Source: Cetorhinus maximus
Taxonomy: Eukaryota
Direction: 5' to 3'
DNA: 64,000 nt
Assembly: GCF_964194155.1 (NCBI RefSeq)
Contig: NC_135902.1
Coordinates: 49,476,001-49,540,000 of the forward strand
The number at the start of each line of letters is the position of its first letter. The stretch's first letter is position 1. Position numbers and translations under genes: made by a program. The notes under the pieces were generated by a model, which saw only the letters and a list, made by a program, of their open reading frames with translations, did not search any database and was not told where the DNA came from. Positions 8,501 to 61,472 of the stretch are shown here, in pieces.

Positions 8501-10585
8501 GTGGAGTACTATATCTGCAGGACGAGAGTACAAGGGGTAGAAACTATGCTATAGCTAGAAGAAACCCTGGTTAGACCATGGCTATAGTACTGTGTTCAGA
8601 TTTGGACACCACACCTTAGGAAGGATATACTGGTCTTGGAGAAGAGCAGCATAGATTTATCAGAATGAGACCTGGGCTCCAAGGGTTACATCAGGAGGAG
8701 AAATTACATAAATTAGGATTGTATTCACAGGAATTAAGATTATGGGGGATTTGATCAAAGTTTAAGATACCGATCTGAAAAACAGAGAAATTATTTCCAC
8801 TGGTCGGGGGGAGTCTAGGTCAAGGAGACATAACCTAAAAATCAGAGCCAGGCCTTTCTGAAGGAGATAGCTGAAGAGATAGTGGAGGCATTAGTGGTGA
8901 TCTTTCAGGAATCAGAGTCAGGGAGGGTCCCTGAGGACTGGAAAATCGCTAATTTAACCCCCCCTGTTTAAGAAGGGAGTGAGGCAAAAGACAGGAAATT
9001 ACAGGCCGATTAGCCTGACCTCGGTCATTGGTAAGATTTTAGAGTCCATTATTAAGGATGAGATTTCAGAATACTTGAAAGTGCATGGTAAAATAGGGCA
9101 AAGTCAGCATGGTTTCATCAAGGGGAGGTCATGCCTGACAAATCTGTTAGAATTCTTTGAGGAGGTAACGAGCAGGTTAGACAAAGGAGAGCCAATGGGT
9201 GTTATCTACTCGGACTTCCAGAAGGCCTTTGACAAGGTGCCGCACAGGAGGCTGATCAGTAAGATAAGAGCCCATGGTGTTAGAGGCAAGGTACTAGCAT
9301 GGATAGAAGATTGGTTGTCTGGCAGGAGGCAGAGAGTGGGGATGAGGGGGTCCTTCTCAGGATGGCAGCCGGTGACTAGTGGAGTTCCGCAGGGGTCAGT
9401 GTTGGGACCACAACTTTTCACTTTATACATTAATGATCTAGATGAAGGAACTGAGGGCATCCTGACTAAGTTTGCAGATGATACGAAGATAGGTGGAGGG
9501 ACAGGTAGTATTGAGGAGGCGGGGAAGCTGCAGAAGGATTTCGACAGGTTAGGAGAATGGGCAAAGAAGTGGCAGATGGAATACAACGTGGGGAAGTGTG
9601 AGGTCATGCACTTTGGTGGGAAGAATAGAGGCATAGACTGTTTTCTAAATGGGGAGAGAATTCAGAAATCTGGAGTGCAAAGGGACTTGGGAGTCCTAGT
9701 CCAGGATTCTCTCAAGGTTAACTTGCAGGTTGAGTCGGTAGTTAGGAAGGCAAATGCAATGTTGGCATTTATTTCGAGGACTAGAATATAAAAGCAGGGA
9801 TGTGCTGCTGAGGCTTTATAAGGCTCTGGTCAAACCACATTTAGAATATTGTGAGCAATTTTGGGCCCCGTATCTCAGGAAGGATGTGCTGGCCCTGGAG
9901 AGGGTCCAGAGGAGGTTCACGAGAACGATCCCAGGAATGAAAGGCTTAACATATGAGGAACGTTTGAGAACTCTGGGTCTATAGTCGATGGAGTTTAGAA
10001 GGATGAGGGGGGATCTGATTGAAACTTACAGAATACTGAAAGGCCTGGATAAAGTTGACGTGGGGAAGATGTTTCCATTAGTAGGAGAGACTAGGACCCG
10101 AGGGCACAGCCTCAGAGTAAAGGGAAGACCTTTTAGAACAGAGATGAGGAGAAACTTCTTTAGCCAGAGAGTGGTGAATCTATGGAATTCATTGCCACAG
10201 AAGGCTATGGGGGCCAGGTCATTGAGTGTATTTAAGACCGAGATAGATAGGTTCTTGATTGGTATGGGGATCAAAGGTTACAGGGAGAAGGCGGGAGAAT
10301 GGGGTTGAGAAACTTATCAGCCGTGACTGAATGGTGGAGCAGACTCAATGGGCCGAATGGCCTAATTTCTGCTCCTATGTCTTAAGGTCATCAACAGTGA
10401 AGTTAGGAAACACTTCTACATGCAAAGAGTGGTAGAAGTTTGGATCACTCTTTACAAACAGCATTGATGCTAGGTCAATTGTTAGTTTTAAAATCAGAAA
10501 TTGATAGATCTCTGTAAAAGCATATGGAGTTAGATCATAGATTGCCATCATCTACTTGAATGGCAGAAAAGGGTCAAGGAGCTAG
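8500..10585 (+). mobile_element. older CR1 fragment split by a younger CR1 (host parts ~8500-8859 and ~10391-10585)
   Basis: Host reads ...gccaggcctttc | aacagtgaagttaggaaacacttc across the insertion, continuous CR1 C-terminal sequence. Confidence 0.7.
8860..10390 (+). mobile_element. young CR1 (HER1-like) LINE, RT domain to 3' end
   Basis: ORF 8979-9791 (NYRPISLTS, QHGF, DFQKAFD, PQGSVLGP, FADD), continued by 9754-9984 and 9988-10308; tail atgggccgaatggcc. Confidence 0.97.
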
Positions 10586-10651: not shown

Positions 10652-11470
10652 ATAGAGTCATAACAGCACAGGAGGTGGCCATTCAGCCTTTTGAGTCCAT
10701 GCTGACTCTTTCTCGGGCAATCCAGTCAATCCCATTTCCTTGTTCAATGCACACTGCCCTGCAAGTTTATTTCCAACATGCGCCTCGCCAATTTCCTTTA
10801 GAAACTCTGCTCTGCTTCCAGCTCATTACCACACGCTTAGAAAAAGTTCTTCCACACATTCCTCCTGCATCTCTTGCCTAAAACCTTAAATCTGTGTCAC
10901 TTAACCCTTGTACCATCAGCCAATGAGAACAGCTTTTCTTTGTTGACCTTATCTAAACCAGTCATAATCTCATACCCTTTTACCAAATTACCCTTCAATC
11001 CCCTTTGCTCCAAAGAGAACAATCCCAGTTTCTCTAACCTAAACCTGTAGCTAAAACTTCTCCCACCTGGAACCATTCCAGTAAATCTCCTCTGCAACAT
11101 CTCAAGGATCCTCACATCTTTTCTAAAGTGCGGTGATGAGACCTGGACTCAATACTCCAGTTGTGGCCTAACCAAAGCTTTACAAAGGTTCAGTATCACT
11201 TCCCTGCTTTTGTATTCAATACCTCTATTTATGAAGCCCAAGATCCCATATGCTTTTCTCACGACTCTCTCAATTTGTCCTGCCACCTTCAAAAGGTCTA
11301 TGCATATGAATCCCGAGGTCCCTCTTACCCTGCACATTTTTTAGAACTGTGTCATTAAGTATACATTGCCTTTCTCTATCCCTTCTCTCAAAACACATCA
11401 CCTCGCATCACCTCTATTTACCACTTGTCTGCCCAATTCTGCTAGCCTATCAATAACATGTTGCAATCGA
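10652..11470 (-). mobile_element. CR1 3' portion
   Basis: Minus ORFs 11149-11337 (GFINRGIEYKSREV) and 10897-11115 (LEKLGLFSLEQR). Confidence 0.9.
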
Positions 11471-11599
11471 TTGGCTCTTTGACTTTGGATGCATTTTTCA
11501 CAGAAAATTCTCCCATGAAAAATATATGGAAGTCATGAATTCACCTAGGTATAATATTTCCTCCTTTTAAAAAAAATATTTTAACCAACTTTCTATCAT

Positions 11600-11915
11600 T
11601 TAGTGCTGGGTTATTATTGGGTATTGGCTGAGCAGATATTCATGGCCTGTACTCCACCTTAGCAGCCAATTCTCATCTATGGGCCAGGACTGCAATGACC
11701 AGTAGGGTATTATTACAGGTCTAGTTTCTGACCTGCCACAATGTCCACACACACACTTCCAGCAAGGGTCATTACTTGCCAACCTACAGTGGGAATCCCA
11801 ATAAATTTCCTTCTCCCTATTCCAGGGCACTGAAGTCACGTGTAGTGCACTCTTCAGCTGAAATCAGCTAATTTATCACAGATCATGGATTAAACTTGTG
11901 CCTTCCTGTGTGGTC
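11600..11915 (-). mobile_element. old SINE-like repeat (related copies ~13085-13312+, ~18545-18810+, ~56260-56530+, ~62690-63010-)
   Basis: Recurrent head-like motif (aggaaggtcccaggtttgat...gctgatttcagc) and acacacacttccagca segment; family not named. Confidence 0.45.
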
Positions 11916-11947
11916 CAACGCCCAACAAGGTAATCTTATTCAGCCAA

Positions 11948-12825
11948 TAGAATCACAATCATTACAGCACAGAAGGAGGCCATCTGGCCTGTCATGTCTA
12001 TGCAGGCTTTCCATAAGGCTAATTTACCGAGTGCCACTCCCCTGACTTCACCCCATAGCCCTCCAGATTCTTCCTTTTCAGATAACGTCATTTTACTCTT
12101 CAATGTCTCGAATAAATCTGCCTCCACCACAAGCTCAAGCAGCACATTCTAGATCCTAACCACTCGCTGCATGAAAAAACTTGTCTATGTCGCCATTGCT
12201 TCTTTTGCAATTACCTGAAATCTATGCCCTCTTGTTCTCAATCCTTTCACCAATGGAGATGTTTTGTCCTCATCTACTCTATCCAGGCCCCCTCTTGATT
12301 TTGAGTACCTCTGCCAAATCTCCTCTCAATCTTCATTTCTCCGAGGAAATCAGTCCCAACTTTTCCAATCAATCTACATAACTGAAGTTCCTCATCCCTG
12401 GGACCATTTTCGTGAATGCACTCCTGTCTAATGCATTCAAATCTTTCCTAAAGTGTGGCATTCAGAACTGCATGTGGTGCTCCAGTTAAGGCCGAACCAG
12501 TGTTCTATACAAGTTTAACATAACCTCCTTGCTTTTATTGGCTTGGAAGGAGGGTCGTATGGACTCGATAAGTTAACTCCATTTCTCTCTCCAGAGAGGC
12601 TGCCAAACCTGAATTTTTCCAGCATTTTCATTTTTTATTTCAGATTTCCAGCACCCGCAGTGTTTTGCTTTTATCTCCTTGCTTTTATAATCAATATCCC
12701 TATTAATAAAGCCAAGGATCCTATATGCTTTATTAATTAGTCTCTCAACCTATCCTGCCACCTTCAATGATTTAGGCACATATACACCCAGGCCCCTCTG
12801 CTCCTACATCCCCTTTAGAATGGTT
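11948..12825 (-). mobile_element. CR1 3' portion interrupted by a Penelope-derived insert
   Basis: Begins tagaatc...acagcacagaaggaggcc (reverse complement of CR1 tail); CR1 C-terminal sequence on both sides of 12539-12674. Confidence 0.85.
12539..12674 (+). mobile_element. Penelope-like terminal fragment (family A) with degenerate hammerhead
   Basis: 14-bp TSD ctccttgcttttat (12525-12538 / 12675-12688); gggtc-gtatg-gactc stem followed by family A tail. Confidence 0.75.
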
Positions 12826-14978
12826 TTAGAATTATTTTTTAAGTTAATAATTTAGGATTAGCAGAATCCTCTTTCATTTTTATTATATTTTTGATAATTT
12901 TTACAATTTCTTAATTTTCATAATCTACCCATAGCTTGCAGCTTTCCTCAACTCAGCCCTCACTTTATATTAATAACTTTAAAAACTCAGTTCCACTGAA
13001 CAACCATAATCAGTGAAGATCATGCCAAACAGTTTATATTATTCAGCAAAATTAAAACAAGCAAAGTTGATCCATTAATTCAGTGAGGGACAAAGACTAG
13101 GAAGGTCCCAGGTTTGATATGCAGCCGTTGCCGAAATGGCTAACTTCAGCCCAGACATAACAATAGGCCTCAGTATCCCTGGATTAAGGAGGGAACTGCT
13201 CCTGTACAATATTTAACAATTGCTGGAGGTGGCTACATGTGGGTAATAACAGACTCCAATGTAATATTTTTATGATTGAATAACCTTCCGATATTCACAG
13301 TTGGGGCTCATGTAGGTTTACAAGGTATTTGAGCAGGAGTAGGCCCATCGACCCATTAAGCCTGCTCCAACATTCAACAAGATCATGGCTGACCTGACTG
13401 AAGCCTTAACTCCATTTTCCGGTCTGAGCCCCATAACTCTGCTGTTTTATGGTTCCAACTCTTTTACTTTGACTCTATAAACAAACAGGGGTAACCTTCT
13501 GAACTGCCACTTTCTTTTAGGTGTTCTGGCCATCCCAAAAGCCCAGCATTTTAGTTACCCTACCTTCACAGCAACAATCTTCCCAGAACTAAACATTATC
13601 TCAAAAATATTAACATGAACCATGAACTAGATATTCATCACAACATAAGCATCAAATCAAATTTTATATACATAAAACAAATCATAATTCAATTAGTAAA
13701 GAATATATTAAAAAACGAGGAAAAAATGAGAAGTTGACTTCCGATACAGAAGCACCAAAAATGTATGAAAATAATGCTTCAAAATTAAGCATCAGCGAAA
13801 ATATTTGCAGAAAGGGAATAAAGTAAACTACACCAAACATTTTTCTTTGTGCATTCTTTCAGCCAAGTCTAATATCTTCTTGGAAATAAGGTTTGTAACA
13901 AAATAAAGACACAAATAAATAAAACATTTAAACTCTACAGTAGAGTTGGGAGTGAAGGATAGAAGGTGTTGGACTGAGAGATTTGGCCATATGGAAGGAC
14001 AATCATATTTTAAATAATTTTATGTAAAATGTATGATGTATAATTTTAAATAAAATTAATTTTAAATTAAATAAATTTAAACCAGTAATTGGCCAGTGAA
14101 AAATCATTGATTTGCTTTAGTATAATTAGTAAAGCTAGCTGAAGTGAAGGAGAGAGCTTCCCAAAACCTTCAAAGTTTTGTCACTCAGTAGCAGAAAGCA
14201 GTGAAATGGGGAAATCAGTCAGTTACCAGCTCCAAACCCAGGAACATTTCCCATGAACACCACAAGTTTAAAACGTTGGGACTATCCGTTAAAATTCTCC
14301 CCTCCCCCACCCAGCCTGCTCACATTAATAACGGTCTCAGCCAAAACGCTTCGCCAGTGAACTCATCTCTATCACATAGACTCTCCTTTCACTAACTTAT
14401 CACCCGCCTTTCCTCTCGGAGTTGCTGTGTTAGTCGGAAGGCCTCCTTGTCTTACAATTGCCAGCTCTTTTTTCCTCTCAAATCTTAGTACCCTCTGCAG
14501 TTTCAGCCTCTTCTGATTTAGAGGAAGACTTTTGGCTACCTTTCATTCCTGCCAACCAGTTTGTGCTAATTTCCAGTCTCTCATTGAGACCCCATTGTCT
14601 TGGGAATTTGTTTCACTCCTTTCTGTACTTGACCCTGCTGGCTCCTCAAATCTTCTCTTCTCTCCCTCAATGCCAGTGCCACCATTACATCCCAGATACT
14701 CTTCAAGAGTGGCAAGCCTCCCTCGATGTACCATTCTCACCAGCCACACAGAATCATTCTACTCTCTCCCCTGGTTGGCACCAATTCTTCCATTTATGAC
14801 TGCCAAAATCTCTCTTTGGTTCAGCTCCAGCTTCATTGCTCTTGTTGACTCCTGCATTTTTGGTATCAAAACTATCACAAAGGCATCAATTACTTTTCTG
14901 GTTCTTGTTCCACACTTTTCCATACATTCAAAACAAAAAGTGGACAATTGTTGGGAAAAGAGAAATTAAATATTGTTT

Positions 14979-15290
14979 ACAAGTAATCATTTGGTAGTAC
15001 AGAACTTGAGTAATGTTGAAAAAAAAATTTTGTAGAAGCTTGTCTTACACTCATCAAAACCATTGCAAAAATACCAATGACGGGGGAAGCAACAACTTTA
15101 AACCGTATAAGAGTGTGCTGATTGATTGGCAAACGGACGCTGATTGGTAGAGGGGTTGAAGAATGCAACAATCAGCACTCTCTTCTCATACAGTGCCAAG
15201 TTGTTGCTACCCCTGAAATTGGTATTCTTGTGATTGTCCTGATGAGTGCAAGACGAAAAGCTTTGACAAAATGTCTTTTTCCAGCAATAC
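14979..15290. mobile_element. head-to-head inverted pair of Penelope-like termini (family B)
   Basis: ~15006-15124 is a diverged reverse complement of ~15169-15290; 13-bp TSD ttaaatattgttt (14966-14978 / 15291-15303). Confidence 0.75.
15234..15269 (+). ncRNA. minimal type I hammerhead ribozyme motif
   Basis: ttgtc-CTGATGA-gt(gcaag)ac-GAAA-agct-TT-gacaa: 5-bp stem I, intact core, 2-bp stem II, palindromic stem III. Confidence 0.7.
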
Positions 15291-16065
15291 TTAAATATTG
15301 TTTGGAGAGTTAGTTATGGGTTGGGATAATATATTTGTTATTCTCTAACCAGACTTCACTGTCTAGCATACAAGACTGAACAGCACAAAGATCAACATTC
15401 AACTTCCAAATAACACCACTCTTATCAGCTCAAGGGAAAGCTCAAGCATAGGCTATAGCAAGTCTCCCTTCCCTTCTTCCATCTACAAAATTACCAAGCA
15501 TTCACCTGGACATACCCTGATGTTACAACCTAGATCATGATGCTTTCCACACAGTAAGCAGCAAACATGACTCCACGTAGTACCCCTCCATGGCACAGTG
15601 CACTGGCAAGCATCACAGTGCACTTTCAAAATGCCTGGAGAAAGAAACCCATTATTATGAAGTACACAGCAAGTTTGCATAATTAGGTTCTGAACAAGGT
15701 CAAACCTTGACTTACCACAACTAAATCGGAACATTTGCCAAATATGTTTTCACATGCTATACTGCAAAGATTATACCACTGAAAATCATGAAGAGGAAAA
15801 TAAAATCTTTCCTGCAGGAACTAGCAATCCCTGGTAACTATCAAACAAGCTATACATCAAAAAGAAAATACAAGTTTCTAAAACATTTTAAAAAACGACC
15901 CTTTTTGCAAAAAGGAAATATGACAAACTATTAATCATTTTTAGTGGTATTTGAGCCAAAATACTTAGAATATTGAACTGCTCTTGCATAGCACTCATCC
16001 CATTCAAAGACGGTGATTCATTTCCCATTTGGCAGCAGTTCAGCCTGTGAAGGCTGTCTACTACG

Positions 16066-16869
16066 GATCTTCTTTTTGCTATGGATGTGTGCGGATTCTT
16101 ACACCTGACTTTTTGCATTGCTATTGTTGCCAGCTGGTCAGACTAGACCTCGTCCTGTTTACCAGACACACTAAGGGTATCCTATTGGGAGTCAAATCTT
16201 GCAGCCAGTCTGGGAAGGTTTGCAATCTTGCATAGATTTAAAATTTTAAATGTATTCAGTCATAACCACAATTTATCAGTAAAAATACAGTCAAAATCAT
16301 TTGTGTACAAAACCAATAGAAAAAATATGCCTCTTAAAGTTTCACTCTGTTAATTTGGCATATGGTAAAAGACAATGTTAATTTTAAAAGATTTATTGAA
16401 GCAGTTTATTTATTCACCACACATTCCAGTGGCATACATTTGGATTTACTGCAATAGTTCCAACTGAGGATTGCTGGTTTTTAGGTAAAACTCTTGGCCC
16501 GTATTGCCTTAGCAGATGTACCGTAAACATTTCAAATGAAAGTAACGCTCAGAGATTCATATGCATGTAGTTAACCAAATGAAGTGAAAATTAAAATTGA
16601 TGCGGAAACAGCTTGTATAACACAAATGACTTGGTTCAACTTTTTACATTACCCTACAACAGACTATATCGAAAAGCTAAATGGATCAGTTTTATAGTAA
16701 ATCCGCTAATGCAAACCATCACTTCACCCAAGAACTTGTGCATTTACAGTGTCTGTAATTTTCTGAGTACAGTCAGCATACATATTGCTAATCAGATTTG
16801 GTTAAAAGAAATAGACAGACTAGCAGTCAGGTGTAAGAATCCGCACACATCCATAGCAAAAAGAAGATC
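16066..16869 (-). other. long-range RNA duplex: perfect 45-bp inverted repeat with 714-nt spacer
   Basis: 16066-16110 gatcttctttttgctatggatgtgtgcggattcttacacctgact is the exact reverse complement of 16825-16869; strand is inferred. Confidence 0.85.
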
Positions 16870-17151
16870 TATGTAGCGCAGCAATATCTGAACATCAGAT
16901 TATGGGCCACCTGTAGTATTCTAGCTCTGCAAGCCTAACCATGAAAACCCAGAGAACTCTGTTCTATTTATGACTATATTTTCAGTTTGAACATTGTGGA
17001 CCTGAAGATTTGGAAAAGCTTGCACTCAGCGCTGTTGCCTCTTTGGTAGATAAATCTTCAATCATAATAACAAGATCTGTTAATGTCAGTATCTTGAGAT
17101 GCATGAGATTGTGTGATTCCCGAGGCTCTATGGAATTAAGGTACATGGATA

Positions 17152-17535
17152 AAAGCAATTTGTATTTTGTAGTGCCTTTATTGTAATAAAAAGTCCCAAG
17201 ACACTTCACAGGAGTATCATTAAACAAAATTTAACACCGAGCTACACAAGGAGATATTAGGACAGATAATCAAAACTTGCTCAAAAAGGTAGTTCTTAAG
17301 AAGCATCTTGAAGCAGGAGAGAGGATTCAGCTGGAGAGATTTAGGGGGAGAATTCCAGAGCTTAGGGCCTTGCCATCTGAAGGCATGACTGCCAATGGTG
17401 AAGCAACTAAAATCAGGAATGCTCAAGAGACCAGAACTGGAGAAGCACCAAGATCCTTGGAGAACTATAGGGCTAGGCAAGATTATAGAGAGGAGCAAGG
17501 CCATGGAGGGATTTGAAAGTGTTTTAAAACAGAGA
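17152..17535 (-). mobile_element. L2 LINE 3' end
   Basis: ORF 17220-17606(-) contains SSSGLLSIPDF...GPKLWNSPP...FKMLLKNYLF. Confidence 0.85.
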
Positions 17536-17949
17536 CAGTACTTAAGCAGGGATGAAGGCCAGTGGACAGAGCTCGGGGGTGGGTGGGAAGGTGGTGGGGT
17601 TGACACCTGGCCCTATGTGGTGCACCAATTGCCGAAAACACGTTCAACAGGGCACATAAAATCCAGTCCTTTGCTGAGTTCAGGTGCTGACTGGTGAAAG
17701 GACACTTTTGCCAAAGATGTGGTTGTCCAATAAAAATAAATATTGCTACCTAAAACCAATACTTAAAAATTGCAAATGAGGTCAGTTTGGTTCCTTTTTG
17801 ACTTTTGGAAGATTACAAAATAACGCAATCAGTTTACAAAGTCATCCTAACAAGTATCCAACAACAGGTCAATAAAATCAACTTGAGACGGTCTTGGATT
17901 GCTTAAAAAAAGTTACTGTTTTCATATAAGAAGTGAAGGTTTTCCCTTC

Positions 17950-18095
17950 ATAACAGCACTGTGGATGTAGCTACACCACATCGACTGCAGTGGCTCAAGA
18001 AGGCAGCTCACCACCACCTTCTCAAGGGCAACTAGGGATGGGCAATAAATGCTGGCCCAGCCAGCGAAGCCCACATCCCGTGAATGAATTTTTAA
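17950..18095 (+). mobile_element. 3' tail of the CR1-type family of 46441-49595
   Basis: ctcaagggcaactagggatgggcaataaatgctggcccagccagc is near-identical to 49519-49563. Confidence 0.9.
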
Positions 18096-19164
18096 AAAGC
18101 CAGGAATCAGTTGCTCAAAAAGTCTATACCAGAAAACCACCACCAATGTTGACTTTGAAAAATTGCCACAACTGGTGAGGAAAGGAGAGGGACAATTTCT
18201 GCAAATCAATACTTTCTCGAATACACTTCCAAAACACGTTATTTTGGCCAGGCTAGCTTGCATTTTAAATGTGTTAAATGTTAGTTGGCAATTGTATTTT
18301 CAGTTAATGATGTAACTGCGTACAAGATATTTACAGACAGTTCTAGTAAGATCCTACAGAATTTCTTTGCAAGATAAAACTGCCCCTTTAACTGAAATAA
18401 TTCTGCCATCAACCTTCTGATTTACAATGTACACAGAAATGTGGTAAGAGTGTAGGGACAGACAGCCATAACCAAACAGTCTGCGCTGATCCAAACTGTC
18501 TGCAAAACTGAAAACAAAGCAGATCTATTCAAACTTCTATGCTGGCCTAATGGGTAATAAGAACTGCCCAATGTAGCACTAAACCATACAAACCAGAAGA
18601 TCTCAAGATAAAATTCGCTTTTAGTGTTGCACTGGTTGATTTCAGTTAGGGCACAATAATTGGTATCAGTGCATTCAAATTAGTAGGATCAAAAGTCACG
18701 TTGGGTGCCAGTTCCAGATCCCTACTCTGTGACCCACAATAAAATTGGGGATAAACTGTCTACAGTTACTGGAAAAACAAATGTCAAGGCAACAAGTGAA
18801 TACCACATAATCCATATAAATGTTCACAAGCCCAAATTTTTAAAAATCCTTTCACTATTTCAAGGTTTAGGAACCCAATACTCTGTGGAGCTGAATCTTA
18901 GAGAGATTTATGCATGTATTTTTTAAAAGTGTGTCATAGAAACCTGCAGCACCAGAGGCAACCAACCACCACTTTGCTCCTGTGCACCCTCTTCAAAAGA
19001 ACAAATCGAGTTAGTAGAACTTACCTACTCTTTCCTCATAGACCTGTAATGTTTCCTTGTTAAAGTATTTATCCAATTCCCTTTTGAAAGTTACTACTGA
19101 ATCTTCCACCACTTTTTCAAATAGTGCAATAGAGGTCAGAACAACTCGCTGCTTAAATTTTATT

Positions 19165-20305
19165 TTTTTTTAATTCATTCATGGGATGTGGACAGCACTG
19201 GTTGGGATAGCATTTATTGCCCATCTCTAATCGTCCTTGAGGAGATGGTGGTGAGCTGCTTTCTTCAACTGCTGCAGTCCATGTGGTGTAGGTATACCCA
19301 CAGTGTTGTTAGGGAGGGGCTACCAGGATTTTGACCCATTGACTGTGAAGGAATGACAATATATTTCAAGTCAGGATGGTGAGTGGCTTGGAGGGGAACT
19401 TCCAGGTGGTGGTGTTCCCATGTGTCTGCCCTTGTCCTTCTAGATGGTAGCGCACGTGGGTTTGGAATGTGCTGCCTAAGGAGCCTTGGTGAGTTCCTGC
19501 AGTGCATCTTGTAGGTGGTACACACTGCTGCCACTGAGCATCAGTGATGGAGGGAGTGAATATTTGTGGAAGGGGTGCCAATCATGCAGGCTGCTTTGCC
19601 CTGGATGATGTCAAGCTTTTTGAGTGTTGTTAGAGATGCACTCACCCAGGCACGTGGAGTGTCTTCCATCACACTCCACACCTGTGCCTTGTAGATGGTG
19701 GACAGGCTTTGGGGAGTCAGGGGGAGAGTTACTCGCCACAGGATTCCTAGCCTCTGACCTGTTCTTGTAGTCACAGTATTTATGTGGCTAGTCCAGTTCA
19801 GCTTCTGGTCAATGGTAACCCACAGAATGTTGATAGTGGGAGATTCAGTGATGGTAATGTCATAGAATGTCAAGGGGCGATGATTAAATTCTCTCTTGTT
19901 GAAGGTGGTAGGACACTACCCTGAGGAACTCCTGCAGTGATGTCCTGGAACTGAGATAATTGACCTCCAACAACCACAGCCATCTTCCTTTGTGTTAGGT
20001 ATGACTAACCAGCGGAGATTCCACCTCCCCCCTCCATTCCCATTGACTTCAATTTTGCAAGGGCTCCTGGATGCCACACTTGGTCAAACGCAGCCTTGAT
20101 GTCAAGGGCAGTCACTCTCACCTCACCACTGGAGTTCAGCTCTTTTGTCCATGTTTGAACCAAGGCTGTGATGACGTCAGGTGCCGGAACCCAAACCTAG
20201 CGTCAGCACCTTATGGTTACCCAGCCTTGAGCTGTTAAGTCTTTTCGAAATCTATCCCATTTAGCACGGTGGTAGTGGCACACAACATGATGGAGGATAT
20301 ACTCA
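19165..20305 (-). mobile_element. CR1-type LINE (46441 family), internally deleted 3' portion
   Basis: Minus ORF 19541-19873 (ESPTINILWVTIDQKLNW...LSTIYKAQV) matches 48890-49250. Confidence 0.9.
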
Positions 20306-26010: not shown

Positions 26011-26807
26011 CAACTATTAAAATGAACAGTTCCTGTGTGGAATTTATGGTTAAACATTTTCATTTGAAAGAAATTAAAGGAAGGTGGCACATGGCTCCAA
26101 TTGGCCGAATACAAAATTAGGTAGGTTCATACCCTCAATTTCTCATACTATGAATTCTTAATTGGTTATGGGGGGTTCAAAAGATCTACAAAACATATCA
26201 CTCAGACAACTGTCATAGACCATAACATGATAGGGAAGTATCAACAAAGGCTGGGAACAAGTCATTTGCTTATAATTGTAGGCAGGCATGCTATACTGTG
26301 CAGGGAGACTTAAAAAAGGGAAAGTGAGAAGAGAAATATGCTATAGTTCCTTTAAACCGTCAATATATTTTAGACAGCAAAATTGTTCACCACGGTCTAG
26401 CAACTCCTATGGAACATACTAAATTACAGGAAATGATGTGCAAAATAGAAACTAGGAAGATCAAGAACTAAGCATGAAAAGCAAATCATCCCCACCCACC
26501 AAAGAACCTTTGAGGAGGAAAAAAAAGTTTCAATCAAACCAGGATCTGATGCAGAAATGAGACTGCCTCTCGCACATCAGATTTAATGAATATGAATGCA
26601 CCGTTACCCACATGGACTGGACTGATGGTAAGCATGTGGATACCTTGCTGGGTTTTAAATTCAACATTGAACAAGAAAGAAAACTAGATAATCTACTGCA
26701 CAAGCCTTTAACAGTTCACAACCAGTGCCAAGTGGCTACAGTAAAAAAGAGAAAAAAGATTTAGCATGTATAGGTGGGCTAATGCAATACAAAAGTACAA
26801 TATTTTT

Positions 26808-29375
26808 AGAGTCAGAGGTCTACAGCACAGAAAAAGGCACTTCGGCCCAGCAAGTCTGCGCCGGTCAAACAAGTGCCTAAAACTTGTCTAATCCCATTTT
26901 CCAGCACTAGGCCTTGTACGCCATGGCATCGCAAGTGCACATCCAAATACTTCTTAAACATTATGAGGGTTTCTGCCTCTACCACCCTTTCAGGCAGTGA
27001 ATTCCAGATTCCCACCACCCTCTGGATGAAAAAATTCTTCCTCACATCCCCTCTAAACTTCCTGCCCCTTACCTTAAATCTATGCCCCCTGGTTATTGAT
27101 CCCTCCACCAAGGGGAAAAGTTCCTTCCTGTCTAACTTATCTATGCCCCTCATAATTTTATACACCTCAATCATGTTCCCCCTCAATCTCCTCTGCTCCA
27201 GGGAAAATAACCCCAGTCTATTCAATCTTCCCTCATAACTAAAACTCACTAACCCAGGCAACAACCTGGTAAATCTCCTCTGCACTCTCTCTCTCTCGCT
27301 CTCTCTCTAGTGCAATCACATCCTTCCTATAATGCAGATTCTGGAACTGCACGCAATACTCTAGCTGTGGCCTAACCAGTATTTTATACAGTTCCAGCAA
27401 AACCTCTCTGCTCTGATATTCTATGCCTCTTTTCCTTAACAGCCTTAAATCTAACGAAGTTATGATCACTATCTGCAAAATGCTCCCCCACTGATACCTC
27501 TCTACCACTTGCCCGGCTTCATTCCCTAAAATTAAGTCCAGGACCACCCCCTCTCTTTTAGGACTTTCTACATACTGGCTTACAAAGCTCTCCTGGGTGC
27601 ATTTTAAGAATTCAACTCCCTCTAAACCTATCACACTATGACTAACCCAGTTAATGTTGGGGAAGTTGAAATCCCCCACTATTACTACTCTATCATTTTT
27701 ACACTTCTCTGAAATTTGCCTACATATCTGCTCTTCTATTTCTCTGACTGTTTGGGGGCTTATAGTACACTCCCAGCAATGTGATTGCTCCTTTTTTGTT
27801 TTTTAGTTCTACCCATATGGCTTCATTTGACAGCCTGCTAAGATGTCATCCCTCCTTGCTGCTGCAATTGATTCCTTGATCAATTATGCGATGCCCCCTC
27901 CTCTTTTGCCTCCTTCCCTGTCTCGTCTGAAGACCCTATATCCTGAAATGTTGAGTTGCCAATCCTGCCCCTCTCTCAACCATGTCTCTGTGACAGCAAG
28001 GACATCATACTTCCATGTGTTAATTTGTGCCCTGAACTCATCTGCCTTATTCGTCAGACTCCTTGGATTAAAATAAATACCATCCAGCCTTGCCAAGCTC
28101 CCTTGTGCCTTAACTGGCCTATAATTTCTATGCTTTACAGACTCACTTGCGCTCTCTCCTAATTTTGGCTGTGCATCTCCCCCTGCTGAACCTCCTCTCA
28201 GGATCCCATCCCCCTGCCAAGTTAGTTTAAACCCTCCCCAACAGCACTAGCAAACCTCCCCACAAGGAGAGTTCCGGTTCAGGTACAACCCGTCCGCCTT
28301 GTACAGGTCCCACCGCCCCCAGTAACGGTCCAAATGTCCCAGAAATCTAAAGCCCTCCCTCCTGCAATATCTCTCCAGCCACACATTCATCTGGACTAAC
28401 CTCCTATTTCTATACTCACTAGCACGTGGCACCAGACGTAATCCAGAGATTACTGCTTTTGAGGTCCTGTTTTGTAATCTGTTTCCTAGCTCCCTAAATT
28501 CTGCCTGCAGAATCTCACTCCTCTTTCTACCTATGTCGCTGGTACCAACATGTACCACGATCTCTGTCTGTTTGCCCTCCCCCTTTAGAATGCCTTGCAA
28601 CCGTTCGGTGACATCCTTGACCCTGGCACCAGGGAGGCAACATACCATCCTGGAGTCACGTTTATGGTCGCAGAAATGCCCGTCTGTTCCCCTTACTATC
28701 AAGTCTCCTACCACTATTGCTCTTCCCCTCTTTTTCCTCCCCCCACCCCCGTGCAGCTGAGCCACTCAGTGCCATGAGCGTGTCTGCACTCCCCAGAGAG
28801 ACCGTCACTCTAACCGTTTTCCAATGCAGAAAAACGGTTCTCGAGCGATATGCATCCTGGGGATTTCCTGACTACCTGCCTGACACCTTTCTTCTGACTG
28901 ATGGTCACCCATTCCCTGTGTCTGCACTTCCATAAACTGTGGGGGTGAGCACATCTAAAAACGTGCTATCTACGAAACACTCAGCCTCACGGATGCACCT
29001 CAGTGCCTCCAGCTGCCGCTCAAGCTCCGAAACTTGGAGCTCAAGGAGCTGCAGCTGGTGGCACTTCCTGCACACATGGTCGGTCAGAGCACAAGGAGCG
29101 TCTAGGGCTTCCCACATTTTACAGGCAGTACATAATACAAGACTGAGCTGTCCTGTCATGCCTCTAGTTGAAACAAAACCCTTACTTTAAGTTAAATACA
29201 GTAAAAAGTTAAATTATTTACGTACATTAAATAAAATCTAGAACCCTTACCTTTCCTTAGCTTAATCTATTTTAAACTGGAGAAAAAAACTGTAGAAAAA
29301 CACTTACCCACTACTCACCCATCAGCTCTCACCTTTGTGCTGACATCACTTTTTGAAGCTTTCCCGCACTTGCAG
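26808..29375 (-). mobile_element. CR1 LINE with ORF1 (Cys-rich + SGNH esterase) and APE, RT deleted
   Basis: 28905-29159 CTAC..CRKC plus leucine heptads; 28247-28765 IVVGD, CLPGA, VHVGTSD, DGLYLN; APE VTETWL, GDFNFP, LDLIL; joins ORF2 C-terminus near 27430. Confidence 0.93.
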
Positions 29376-31445: not shown

Positions 31446-31615
31446 CACTGGTACATTCTCCATGGCAACGCCTCTACCAGAGTCCACTTGCAAACCAATC
31501 AGCACTCTCTTCTCATACTGTACAAATTGTTGCTTTCCCCTTATACTGGTATTCTTGCGGAATGTCCTGATGACTGCAAGACAAAAAGCTTTGACGTCCA
31601 TTTTTTCAGCAATAA
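31446..31615 (+). mobile_element. Penelope-like terminal fragment (family B), degenerate hammerhead
   Basis: Homologous to 15169-15290; atgtc-CTGATGA-ctgcaagac-AAAA-agct-tt-gacgt. Confidence 0.7.
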
Positions 31616-37357: not shown

Positions 37358-37600
37358 CCTGCTCGTGGCTTGGGGAGGAGAGTCGCGCTAAGTGCCAACA
37401 CTCTGAACAAGTTTGACACGAGTCACTTGTTTTCTCCTCCCCATCTACTACTCTTTCTACTCAATCCAATCTTGGCACTGGCATCATGGTTCCAGAGATT
37501 TTTTTCTTCTTCTCAAGACCATTTAAAAACGTCTCCTACAGGGCCGCAGACACACACCAGCTCGGCTGCTTGATTGGACACATCTCCCCGCTGATTGGCT
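37358..37600 (-). promoter_or_regulatory. candidate promoter and non-coding first exon of a minus-strand gene
   Basis: Two minus-strand CCAAT boxes (agccaatcag ~37591-37600, tccaatcaag ~37569-37578), local CpG retention, donor CAGG|gtaaga at 37358/37357. Confidence 0.45.
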
Positions 37601-37735: not shown

Positions 37736-40207
37736 CAGTGGGGCTTCACTAAGTCTTCTTTCACCAGGGAATTTGGAGAGCTTGGCTGAAGCCTCAGTGG
37801 TCAGTTACTATCACTCATTATGTCCCGTGCCTGTTCAGAAGCACTACACTTTCCTCATAAAACCCAGCCCCAGGTTGGAAGGAACACAGTTTAGGTAACT
37901 TAATCACCTTGTGAACTAAATTCATTTTATTTTAAAACTGCATTGCGTGCAGCCTGAGATAACGAATGTTATTTTATGCTATTTGAAATCCACAGTAGGA
38001 AAAAACTAAAAGTTTATTTGACCCCTTTCACATTAAAATCAATTATGTCAAGATGGCCTTTAGGAAACCTTGGTGTGATGTTACTATAGATCAGTAACAC
38101 TGAATGCAAATGCAAACGTCAATAGTGTCTGCTGCTTCCTGGCCAAGGCCCATAAGCTGAAGTGGCTCAGATAAAGTAATGGACTGGTGAGTACACAAAT
38201 AACATTTTTACAAAGTACATTAAAAACAAATTTATATATATTTATGTTGATCTATAATGAATAAACTTTAATCATTATATATTGAATGTTACTATGCTGC
38301 TTTATTGCTGTTTTCTTTGACATCTGCGGTCAAGTTAATTTTCAAGTGTTAAAATGGAAAACATTGGAAAATAGATTGGGATGCACGGACTTAGGCATTT
38401 GCTCTAAAATTTCCAAACTCAGTACAGTAAGAGTGCCAAAGCAAACGTGGTGTCTCCTTAAGGTGCATTCACACTCAGGCACCTTGTTCAGCTTTCAACT
38501 ACTGGAAACAGTTTACTTCTATCTAACCTGTCCATTACAAAGTTGCAGATTATGAATTCCACAGCAAACATTGGCATTAGTGCAAAGCAAAACAGTTTCA
38601 CATGAATAGTGCATTCTTAGCATAAATGCAGCCTGAATTTGGAATCAGGGCCAACAGTTCAATTCAGACCCTGACACCCAATTAAGACTTCATAGTTCAA
38701 CATTGGTGACACGTTGACACTGCTTTGCACCAACGCTAAACTTGCAGAGTGGAAGCATCATAAATTAACATAAATATGCAAACAGAATTCTTTCCAGCTG
38801 TTAGCACACTTGAGAAAATCCTCCACTTTCCACTTGATATTCCTTTAATTGGGGGGAAGAAAAGTGGGATTTTGTGAGGGAGAGCGTAGCCACAAATGTT
38901 CACTGTGGAATTGTTAATCTGCAACTTTACATGGGGCAGGGTAGACAGAAGCAAACTGTTTCCGGTAATTGAGGGGTCCACAACAAAGGTGCCATTGATA
39001 ATGAATTAAATGCAGAAGATTTGGAAAAGGACAGAACAAACTTCCAATCACAGTTTAGAGGTTGTAAAATTCACTTCTAGGGTTAGTGGTTGAGGCAGTA
39101 ACTATATTAACTTTCAAGGTTAAATTGGGCAGATGGATGAAGGAAAATGAAGATTAAGCGATACAAGTATATAGTGTAATTAGGACTATTCGCTCACTGG
39201 ATATTTACAGGCAACTTATAATAAAACTTGTATCCCTCTGCAGACCTGCTCTACGCTTGTATTCCCCACTGTCTTTATCTGATCTTCAAAAAGGTTTGTC
39301 TGGAGCATCATGAGCTTAACAGCAGTACCTCTTCTAATATAGACAACTGCAGGAAATCAGGACTAAATTGCAGGAAATCAGGATTAAATTTTGCCTTGTC
39401 AATACCTTAATATGTACAAAGGCACCAATGATTTAAAAAAAAAGCATTTTCACTTCTTTGCAATTGAATTATGTTAAAGGATTCACCTCAGTCTGTTTGG
39501 GGAAGAGAAGCTAAGGAGAGAAATTTCTGATCTATTGATGATCTGGATGGTCACAAAACATTTGAGCACTAAACAGGTCAAAACTTTGATAAATAATTGC
39601 ACCTGGAGAGAACTGATTATTTCAATCCCAACACCACAAGACAATGTGCGGCAGAAAACTTGGCACTATTTTAACCTGTTACAAAGTAATGTTTTGTTTT
39701 TGTTAGAAAAGTCCATAAACATATTGAGGAGAGTTTACATAAACATATTCTGTGAAGGATAATTAAATAGACTCAGTTACTCACTTATTTCCAGACTGGT
39801 CTTTTTTGTACAGTGAATGTTTGCTTCAAAAGAATACCTGGGTCTGTAGTGACCATCTAACATTAATTATGAAGAGTCACAAATCAACAAATCTGAAAAA
39901 AAAAAATCAACAGGTTCCTGCTCTTGATTACTATCCAACAACTGCTGCTGGAAGCTCATGGATTTTGGGTGAGACACACTTGAGCTCAAGTGCCATATCA
40001 GTGAAGACAAATAGCCTGCCAACATCAATGTCGAGACTTGCCTCTGAAAAATGGAAAACATCAGAGGATGGTGAACACCCATGTAATGACTGCCCACAAA
40101 GTTGTTGACCAGGTTAAGAGCAATGGGAAGGATAAAAGAATTTGTGAAAAAAAAGGAAGAAAAACATTTTGTAGTGCGATTATAGACGCCTTTAAGCTTT
40201 TCCGTTG

Positions 40208-40987
40208 CAACAATCGTCCTGGGATTCACCTACAACAATCGTCCTGGGATTCACCTACAACAATCGTCCTGGGATTCACCTACAACAATCGTCCTGGGAT
40301 TCACCTACAACAATCGTCCTGGGATTCACCTACAACAATCGTCCTGGGATTCACCTACAACAATCGTCCTGGGATTCACCTACAACAATCGTCCTGGGAT
40401 TCACCTACAACAATCGTCCTGGGATTCACCTACAACAATCGTCCTGGGATTCACCTACAACAATCGTCCTGGGATTCACCTACAACAATCGTCCTGGGAT
40501 TCACCTACAACAATCGTCCTGGGATTCACCTACAACAATCGTCCTGGGATTCACCTACAACAATCGTCCTGGGATTCACCTACAACAATCGTCCTGGGAT
40601 TCACCTACAACAATCGTCCTGGGATTCACCTACAACAATCGTCCTGGGATTCACCTACAACAATCGTCCTGGGATTCACCTACAACAATCGTCCTGGGAT
40701 TCACCTACAACAATCGTCCTGGGATTCACCTACAACAATCGTCCTGGGATTCACCTACAACAATCGTCCTGGGATTCACCTACAACAATCGTCCTGGGAT
40801 TCACCTACAACAATCGTCCTGGGATTCACCTACAACAATCGTCCTGGGATTCACCTACAACAATCGTCCTGGGATTCACCTACAACAATCGTCCTGGGAT
40901 TCACCTACAACAATCGTCCTGGGATTCACCTACAACAATCGTCCTGGGATTCACCTACAACAATCGTCCTGGGATTCACCTACAACA
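40208..40987. repeat. perfect minisatellite, 25-bp unit x 31 plus 5 bp
   Basis: Unit caacaatcgtcctgggattcaccta; no variant unit seen. Confidence 0.98.
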
Positions 40988-61381: not shown

Positions 61382-61472
61382 ACAAAAATAGCTGGAAAAA
61401 CTCAGCAGGTCTGACAGCATCTGCGGAGAGGAATACAGTTAACGTTTCGAGTCCGTATGACTCTTCATCAGA
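61382..61472 (-). mobile_element. Penelope-like terminal fragment (family A)
   Basis: 15-bp TSD attaat(t/c)ctacttaa (61367-61381 / 61473-61487). Confidence 0.8.

What the first reader, a model, noticed from the sequence alone, without database searches (positions are those of the whole stretch)
16058..16876. Perfect 45-bp long-range duplex in unique-looking DNA, a likely ADAR substrate
Seen: 16066-16110 and 16825-16869 are exact reverse complements 714 nt apart. Neither arm resembles a repeat in this window, and neighbouring transposon copies are visibly diverged. Pairing extends imperfectly: ctatt 16121-16125 with 16810-16814, and 16138-16146 with 16788-16796. Several mismatches are G-U wobbles only on the minus strand. 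At the outer edge, minus-strand A16870 lies in a UAG context opposite C16065. Established: ADARs prefer UAG and A:C mismatches in long duplexes. Inference: a selected intronic dsRNA of a minus-strand gene.
Basis: partly seen in the sequence, partly recalled or inferred. Interest (0 to 1): 0.8.

Follow-up and report, generated by a model that had tools for sequence, protein, structure and literature searches.

The report
Short inverted duplicate in shark-type DNA
A 45-base stretch of non-coding DNA from a cartilaginous fish has an exact reversed copy 714 bases away; this is most likely a DNA copying accident that would form double-stranded RNA if transcribed, and nothing tested here shows that selection keeps it as an RNA-editing signal.

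Summary
The 45-bp perfect inverted repeat (16066-16110 / 16825-16869, 714-nt spacer) is real, far beyond chance, and single-copy in the window. The host is a cartilaginous fish. Base skews mildly favour minus-strand transcription, but no exon or host gene was found.

The inner 'extension' is at chance level. Its wobbles favour the plus strand 6 to 4. The proposed A16870:C site is unpaired in the minus-strand fold.

Best reading (0.5): a template-switch or microhomology-primed inverted copy. With the slow shark mutation clock it could stay perfect for about 10^7 generations without selection, and ADAR would edit it incidentally if transcribed. Rivals: a selected ADAR-recruiting stem plus edited hairpin (0.2); terminal repeats of a low-copy non-autonomous DNA transposon (0.2). 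Conservation and editing, the decisive tests, could not be run because no vertebrate genomes or RNA-seq were available. Interest is low to moderate.

The parts
16066..16110 (.). Left arm of the perfect 45-bp inverted repeat (3' arm of the duplex on a minus-strand RNA)
   Evidence: exact match; no third copy in the window
16825..16869 (.). Right arm of the perfect inverted repeat (5' arm on a minus-strand RNA)
16111..16824 (.). 714-nt spacer: single-copy in the window, no exon, ORF homologue or Rfam family; not an old palindrome
16032..16064 (-). Local hairpin on the minus strand (7 bp with two U-G pairs, 1x2 loop, 6 bp, 4-nt loop) one base from the end of the long duplex; holds two UAG triplets (A16062, A16059)
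   Evidence: -17.5 kcal/mol vs -11.7 on plus, z -4.17, 0 of 200 shuffles; pair probabilities 0.83-1.0; adjacency p about 0.013-0.055, post hoc
16024..16065 (.). Left outer flank with interrupted complementarity (blocks of 5, 6, 4 and 4 bp) to the right outer flank; candidate priming 'microhomeology' or decayed outer arm
   Evidence: duplex display; p 0.004-0.037 for 15-45 nt flanks on both strands, 0.05-0.30 for 10, 60 and 80 nt; alignment test not significant (p 0.41)
16870..16906 (.). Right outer flank, partner of the interrupted complementarity; contains a 6-bp hairpin at 16886-16900

Best explanation
A local inverted duplication made at the DNA level, probably by one template-switch (MMBIR-like) event. 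A nascent 3' end annealed about 800 nt away on the opposite strand through the interrupted complementarity of the two outer flanks, copied 45 nt, and returned. The same result would follow from homogenising part of an older imperfect inverted repeat. Which arm is the copy cannot be told. The copy is younger than most transposon copies in the window but need not be recent in years, since the shark mutation clock is slow. If the region is transcribed (minus strand slightly favoured), the 45-bp stem will form and ADAR will probably edit it non-selectively, like inverted repeat pairs, without that implying function. SHOWN: the perfect arms, sharp ends, single copy in the window, one-sided weak outer complementarity, host group, stem stability. 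INFERRED: the template-switch mechanism, the age, neutrality, transcription and editing.
For: 45 of 45 Watson-Crick pairs with no wobble or bulge, and an abrupt fall to chance on the inner side. Excess complementarity only on the outer side and on both strands, slightly better on plus (plus-strand pairs 16053-16061 with 16873-16882 at 0.59-0.69), as a one-sided priming site predicts. Template switching creates perfect inverted repeats in one step and converts near-perfect ones (PMC5453318; PMC8794818). Germline templated insertions of 25 bp or more exist in humans and mostly have microhomology or interrupted 'microhomeology' at their junctions (PMC8421209). The host is a cartilaginous fish; at 7e-10 per base per generation (PMC10587355, a different species) 90 neutral sites wait on average 1.6e7 generations for a first substitution. 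The window holds two other local inverted repeats that have decayed: 38484-38572/38895-38983, 70 of 89 pairs, longest perfect run 14, and 15006-15294 at about 70%. No coding exon or known RNA nearby.
Against: The 714-nt spacer is far longer than the short-range switches described in those papers (spacer capped at 70 nt in the yeast study, and switched repeats had shorter spacers: PMC8604942). Classical inverted-template events were only 10 of 103 and 11 of 99 germline calls in PMC8421209. The outer complementarity is weak, was not significant by alignment (p 0.41), and several flank lengths were tried. The minus-specific UAG-bearing hairpin next to the stem is not required by this model (p about 0.013-0.055). 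No empty site or outgroup sequence could be examined.
Confidence: 0.5

Rival explanations
1. A selected intronic RNA structure of a minus-strand gene. The 45-bp long-range stem recruits ADAR like an editing inducer element, and the edited adenosines lie in the abutting 13-bp hairpin (A16062, A16059, both in UAG) or in the stem's own UAG, not at A16870. The stem might alternatively regulate splicing of nearby non-coding exons.
For: The stem lies in DNA that is single-copy in the window. Strand skews fit minus-strand transcription. The hairpin is minus-specific through two U-G pairs (-17.5 vs -11.7 kcal/mol, z -4.17); only 21 hairpin clusters this stable occur on both strands of the window, so adjacency has p about 0.013-0.026. 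Known inducer stems have 25-54 bp (PMC5654063 Table 1). Two exon-like segments, 15716-15778 and 15506-15634, lie 300-550 nt downstream on the minus strand and rank 6th and 4th in a crude splice-site scan.
Against: No wobble or bulge in 45 bp: if 10% of pairs were non-Watson-Crick (an illustrative rate), the chance of none is 0.009. The GluA2 element has four mismatches and a bulge. No recoding exon: the 129-nt candidate has no protein homologue. The hairpin test is post hoc; its first estimate (1 of 6396 windows) shrank about tenfold on a finer scan. Human conserved complementary regions have a median length of 13 nt (PMC8052449).
Confidence: 0.2
2. The arms are the terminal inverted repeats of a young, low-copy, non-autonomous cut-and-paste DNA transposon (MITE) of about 800 bp, perfect because the insertion is recent and transposase needs intact ends.
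For: Size (804 bp) and end-located repeats of 41-45 bp are typical (recalled knowledge). The outer 4 bases form a palindrome that could be a target-site duplication. Absence of a second copy in 64 kb excludes only very abundant families (inference). A MITE-like element with TTAA at both ends lies at about 38458-39009.
Against: The only symmetric duplications at the arm ends are the 4-bp palindrome or its central 2 bp. No duplication of 5 bp or more flanks the arm ends; the asymmetric 5-6-bp hits lie 17-29 nt outside the left arm or overlap the palindrome. The resulting termini match no superfamily signature that I recall. Residual complementarity lies outside the perfect part, whereas transposon repeats usually decay inwards. 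No transposase remnant in six frames of 13441-19160.
Confidence: 0.2
3. A non-autonomous Helentron (HINE-like) element on the minus strand: subterminal inverted repeats plus a 3' stem-loop.
For: On the minus strand a hairpin directly follows the 3' arm, and a run of three T lies 58 nt past the arm, within the 38-60 nt described for HINEs (PMC4067079).
Against: HINE subterminal repeats are 12-15 bp, not 45. The 5' side has no TT flank in either orientation. No second copy in the window.
Confidence: 0.05
4. An assembly artefact: a mis-join or consensus error that copied 45 bases in reverse.
For: Perfect identity; both outer ends fall on a 4-base restriction-type palindrome (sequence).
Against: The window has no N and resolves a 780-bp perfect tandem array, which suggests long reads (inference). 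No match in plasmids, phages or GTDB genomes, so no sign of a vector or microbial source.
Confidence: 0.04

Closest known systems
Template-switch mutations (four-point model, PMC5453318; PMC8794818) and MMBIR templated insertions (PMC8421209)
   Same: Perfect reverse-complement copy with sharp ends, flanked by dissimilar sequence, with interrupted complementarity at one junction.
   Different: Spacer of 714 nt against tens of nt in the short-range studies; no ancestral or empty allele available to show the event.
Editing inducer elements such as GluA2 Q/R, Gabra3 I/M, GluK2 (PMC5654063)
   Same: A long stable stem in the same size range (25-54 bp) next to a shorter stem holding adenosines in a UAG context.
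   Different: Here the stem is perfect and long-range; no coding exon, no shown editing, no shown conservation; the short stem abuts the long one instead of lying 32-230 nt away.
Pairs of conserved complementary regions, PCCRs (PMC8052449)
   Same: Probably intronic, long-range complementary pair within 10 kb, far below -30 kcal/mol (-82.9).
   Different: PCCRs are defined by conservation, which is untested here; their median length is 13 nt.
Repeat-derived hyper-edited dsRNA (PMC5625713)
   Same: Near-perfect non-coding duplex within 2 kb, likely edited non-selectively if transcribed.
   Different: The arms belong to no repeat family visible in this window.
MITEs and HINE/Helentron elements (PMC4067079)
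   Same: Non-coding unit under 1 kb bounded by inverted repeats; a hairpin follows one arm.
   Different: No canonical target-site duplication or terminal motif, arms too long for HINEs, no TT flank, no second copy in the window.

Membership tests
Editing inducer element / site-selective ADAR substrate | Long stable stem of about 25-54 bp | tested here: met
   45 bp, -82.9 kcal/mol, end-pair probabilities 0.69-1.0 on both strands; range
Editing inducer element / site-selective ADAR substrate | Adjacent shorter stem holding the target adenosine | tested here: inconclusive
Minus-specific hairpin 16032-16064 with two UAG triplets; post hoc p 0.013-0.055.
Editing inducer element / site-selective ADAR substrate | Stem interrupted by mismatches or bulges, as in GluA2 | tested here: not met
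   45 of 45 Watson-Crick against 43 bp with four mismatches and an 8-nt bulge
Editing inducer element / site-selective ADAR substrate | Lies next to a recoded exon of a known gene | tested here: inconclusive
   No exon or homologue found; short or non-coding exons would be missed
Editing inducer element / site-selective ADAR substrate | Sequence and structure conserved, with compensatory changes | not testable with these tools
Editing inducer element / site-selective ADAR substrate | A-to-I editing observed in RNA | not testable with these tools
   No RNA-seq
Template-switch / templated inverted insertion | Exact reverse-complement copy with abrupt ends | tested here: met
Template-switch / templated inverted insertion | Microhomology or microhomeology at a junction | tested here: inconclusive
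   Outer flanks p 0.004-0.037 for 15-45 nt by duplex energy, p 0.41 by alignment; exact microhomology would be hidden inside the perfect arms
Template-switch / templated inverted insertion | Ancestral allele lacks one arm or has imperfect arms | not testable with these tools
   No orthologous loci available
MITE (cut-and-paste DNA transposon) | Terminal inverted repeats around a short non-coding unit | tested here: met
   804-bp unit, no ORF homologue
MITE (cut-and-paste DNA transposon) | Target-site duplication and terminal motif of a known superfamily | tested here: inconclusive
   Only a 4-bp palindrome or its central 2 bp qualify; superfamily signatures are recalled, not looked up
MITE (cut-and-paste DNA transposon) | Many dispersed copies | not testable with these tools
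   None in 64 kb; the rest of the genome is not available
HINE / Helentron | Subterminal inverted repeats of 12-15 bp | tested here: not met
   Arms are 45 bp; definition
HINE / Helentron | 3' stem-loop near the 3' end | tested here: met
   Hairpin follows the arm on the minus strand, T run 58 nt past the arm
HINE / Helentron | T-rich (TT) flanks at both ends | tested here: not met
   No TT at the 5' side in either orientation
Any Rfam RNA family | Covariance-model match | tested here: not met
   0 matches at gathering score in the window; 2 weak matches (E 0.4, 2.8) in 14000-18000, neither on the arms

The most novel reading that the evidence does not exclude
An undescribed, selected non-coding RNA module of cartilaginous fishes: a mismatch-free 45-bp long-range stem that loads ADAR onto a directly stacked, minus-strand-specific hairpin with two UAG target adenosines, deep in an intron and far from any coding exon, possibly steering the splicing of the exon-like segments at 15716-15778 and 15506-15634. 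It could have been born by template switching and then kept, which would give a traceable origin for an editing inducer element.
Probability: 0.12. Interest if true: 0.62.

Novelty: new member of a known kind. Interest (0 to 1): 0.27.

Why it matters
If the best reading holds, this is an ordinary local inverted duplication. Its main lesson is that in slowly mutating shark genomes a perfect inverted repeat is weak evidence of selection. It would also be one example of a templated copy made over about 800 nt. If the rival holds, it would be a non-coding, mismatch-free ADAR-recruiting stem in a lineage for which the 20 of 56 papers listed by my one search (titles and abstract starts only) showed no dedicated editing survey. 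Shark genome alignments could then date the birth of such an element.

Tried and rejected
Old palindrome of the whole 804 bp: the interior aligned slightly better than fold-back controls (p 0.003-0.04), but dinucleotide shuffles gave p 0.04-0.12 and the same-orientation control scored about as well; rejected.

Inner extension of pairing: chance level; rejected.

Strand call from wobbles: they favour plus, not minus; rejected as an argument.

Host gene search: Pfam on 365 stop-to-stop frames (all 70 of at least 38 aa in 11000-19500, and 295 of 298 of at least 45 aa elsewhere in non-repeat DNA; 501 frames of at least 38 aa existed) gave 6 weak matches, none at a curated cut-off. Six read-through frames of 13441-19160 gave none. 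The 129-nt exon candidate had no homologue (PDB best E 0.53). One minus-strand frame of 14403-17300 had 0 hits among 1.84 billion proteins; the other five frames were not searched there.

The hairpin as a remnant of the LINE 3' stem-loop, which has a similar shape: a profile of 7 copies gave no hit at the locus; rejected.

Vector or microbial origin: 0 matches in GTDB genomes, plasmids and phages. A 22-base piece of the arm was in 0 papers (one strand, DNA spelling, main texts only). Rfam: nothing.

The hairpin rarity (1 of 6396 windows) was an undercount caused by the 20-nt step; one search supersedes it. The hammerhead-like motif scan found 2 sites against 2.19 expected, so it shows nothing on its own.

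Unchecked: vertebrate genomes, repeat libraries and RNA-seq (not available); metagenome and viral contig collections (closed). No supplementary files were read; editing-site and PCCR tables there could bear on whether a human counterpart is known.

Full report
Observation. The two arms, 16066-16110 and 16825-16869, are exact reverse complements, 45 of 45 Watson-Crick, 714 nt apart. The chance expectation for the window is about 8e-18. This is the longest exact inverted match in the window. The next are 35, 29, 29 and 28 nt inside LINE copies 10-42 kb apart; within 2 kb the next non-microsatellite match is 17 nt. Self-blastn marks 26% of the window as repeated but finds no third copy of either arm. 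nhmmer with the arm, the spacer halves, the flanks or a two-arm profile finds nothing convincing elsewhere; the best stray hits are E 0.013-0.13 for flank or spacer pieces. None of 38 repeat intervals matches 15300-17183 better than E 0.22. The core observation stands.

The inner matches exist but are what random flanks give: p 0.38 by anchored alignment, 0.31-0.55 by duplex energy against random flanks, 0.15-0.75 against 1000 shuffles per length. In 16111-16146 the mismatches include 6 wobbles possible only on the plus strand and 4 only on the minus strand; in the outer register the count is 4 to 1 for plus. A16870 is in a UAG and faces C16065 in register, but in the minus-strand ensemble it is unpaired (0.0) at a junction. 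On the plus strand that position is a G-U pair (0.81), and the helix continues through 16053-16061 with 16873-16882 at 0.59-0.69. Both strands fold far better than 20 shuffles (minus -281.8, z -6.4; plus -265.2, z -9.5), which mainly reflects the 45-bp stem.

Setting. A LINE reverse transcriptase at 8958-9788 has its best named relatives in cartilaginous fishes (Stegostoma 72%, Pristis 68%, Callorhinchus 65%, Hypanus 64%; named turtle hits 47-54%), so the host is very likely a shark, ray or chimaera. In 42,990 non-repeat bases AT skew is +0.060 and GC skew -0.052. That fits transcription on the minus strand by the known strand asymmetry of introns (recalled), although replication asymmetry could also give it. 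No coding exon was found: 365 frames gave no Pfam match at a curated cut-off, six read-through frames around the repeat gave none, the best nearby exon candidate (15506-15634, minus) had no homologue, and one 966-residue minus frame across both arms had 0 hits among 1.84 billion proteins. Rfam found nothing. A promoter-like stretch with two CCAAT boxes and a splice donor lies at about 37358-37600 on the minus strand (not followed up). The host gene is therefore unknown, and 'intronic' is an inference.

First, the outer flanks are more complementary than shuffles of themselves, in blocks of 5, 6, 4 and 4 bp out to 16024/16906. The p values are 0.004-0.037 for 15-45 nt flanks on both strands and 0.05-0.30 for 10, 60 and 80 nt; an alignment test gave 0.41. 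The signal is modest, one-sided and not strand-specific. Second, on the minus strand 16064-16032 forms a 13-bp hairpin one base from the end of the long stem: -17.5 kcal/mol against -11.7 on plus, z -4.17, 0 of 200 shuffles. It depends on two U-G pairs and holds two UAG triplets. A 4-nt-step scan finds 21 hairpin clusters this stable on the two strands of the window, so finding one at one of eight junction-strand positions has p 0.013-0.026, or 0.055 at a looser threshold. This test was chosen after seeing the hairpin.

Mechanism. A stem with no wobble or bulge, sharp ends and loose complementarity on one side is what a DNA-level template switch produces. A 3' end anneals on the opposite strand through interrupted complementarity, copies a short tract and returns. 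Such events create or perfect inverted repeats in one step (PMC5453318, passages; PMC8794818, first sixth of the text). Germline templated insertions in humans mostly show microhomology or interrupted microhomeology at their junctions (PMC8421209, passages and part 1 of 2 of section 10). Against this, the short-range studies concern spacers of tens of bases (PMC8604942 capped them at 70 and found switched repeats had shorter spacers; passages; PMC8755829, passages). Classical inverted-template events were 10 of 103 and 11 of 99 calls in PMC8421209.

Perfection needs no selection in this lineage. At 7e-10 per base per generation (epaulette shark, PMC10587355, passages), 90 neutral sites wait about 1.6e7 generations for a first change (another species' rate, CpG sites ignored). 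Perfect arms only bound the pairwise divergence at about 6%, younger than the 70-89% identical repeat pairs. Two older local inverted repeats in the window have decayed (38484-38572/38895-38983, 70 of 89 pairs; 15006-15294, about 70%). I give this reading 0.5. Whatever its origin, the stem (-82.9 kcal/mol) would form in any transcript across both arms, and long near-perfect non-coding duplexes are the usual hyper-editing targets across animals (PMC5625713, passages). 'ADAR substrate' in this incidental sense is likely if the locus is transcribed.

Rivals. A selected editing-inducer module (0.2) gains from the stem length (known elements have 25-54 bp; PMC5654063, passages and section 9), the minus-strand skew, the UAG-bearing hairpin, and two exon-like segments 300-550 nt downstream (crude scoring). 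It loses from the absence of mismatches, of a recoded exon and of any conservation data; human conserved complementary regions have a median of 13 nt (PMC8052449, passages). A low-copy MITE (0.2) fits the size, and one window cannot exclude it, but the only candidate target duplication is the 4-bp palindrome at the arm ends or its central 2 bp, and the leftover complementarity lies outside the perfect part. A HINE-like element (0.05) fits the arm-plus-hairpin order but fails on repeat length and TT flanks (PMC4067079, passages). An artefact (0.04) is unlikely in a gap-free window that resolves a 780-bp perfect array; no microbial, plasmid or phage match exists.

Verdict. The feature is real and unusual to look at, but it belongs to known kinds under every reading that the evidence favours. 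It works like a long-range RNA duplex if transcribed. It is not shown to be an editing inducer element, and one typical feature (an interrupted stem) was tested and not met. Other papers were seen only as search listings with abstract starts. Transposon superfamily signatures, the hammerhead core and the intron strand asymmetry are recalled, not taken from a call. Conservation in other cartilaginous fishes and stranded RNA-seq would settle the matter. Interest 0.27.

Noticed in passing
window 15006-15294, partial copy at 31449-31615: A 289-bp self-palindromic repeat (arms about 70% alike) with a hammerhead-ribozyme-like core at 15239-15258 on plus and a decayed mirror copy on minus. This is the layout of Penelope-like retroelement ends (recalled). 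The motif alone is at chance frequency (2 found, 2.19 expected), does not fold as a hammerhead and has no Rfam match.
   Followed up: partly
window 38458-39009: A second local inverted repeat: 89-bp arms at 79% (38484-38572 / 38895-38983, 322-nt spacer), with TTAA at both outer ends of the gapped alignment; looks like an old MITE.
   Followed up: partly
window 37358-37600, minus strand: Promoter- and first-exon-like stretch: locally CpG-rich, two CCAAT boxes, an 8-codon upstream ORF and a splice donor at 37358; possibly an alternative promoter of the unknown host gene.
   Followed up: no
window 40208-40987: A 25-bp unit repeated 31.2 times with 100% identity: a very recent or actively homogenised minisatellite, showing that perfect duplications do arise in this region.
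   Followed up: no
window 15506-15634 and 15716-15778, minus strand: Two exon-like segments (129 and 63 nt, both multiples of 3) with strong splice signals just 3' of the duplex. They are not in frame with each other; the 129-nt one has no protein homologue. Possibly non-coding or poison exons, or chance.
   Followed up: partly
window 61445-61471, minus strand: A second match to the hammerhead-like core, with a 5-bp stem between the two motif halves, at what looks like the end of a short repeat.
   Followed up: no
window 26800-29200, minus strand: A fairly complete CR1-type LINE with recognisable ORF1 (esterase-like GDSL/OSK match, weak zinc-ribbon match) and endonuclease parts.
   Followed up: no
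window 15900-15915: A perfect 16-bp palindrome sharing an 8-mer with the left arm and with the left inner junction (15901, 16072, 16109); by my estimate within reach of chance in T-rich DNA.
   Followed up: partly
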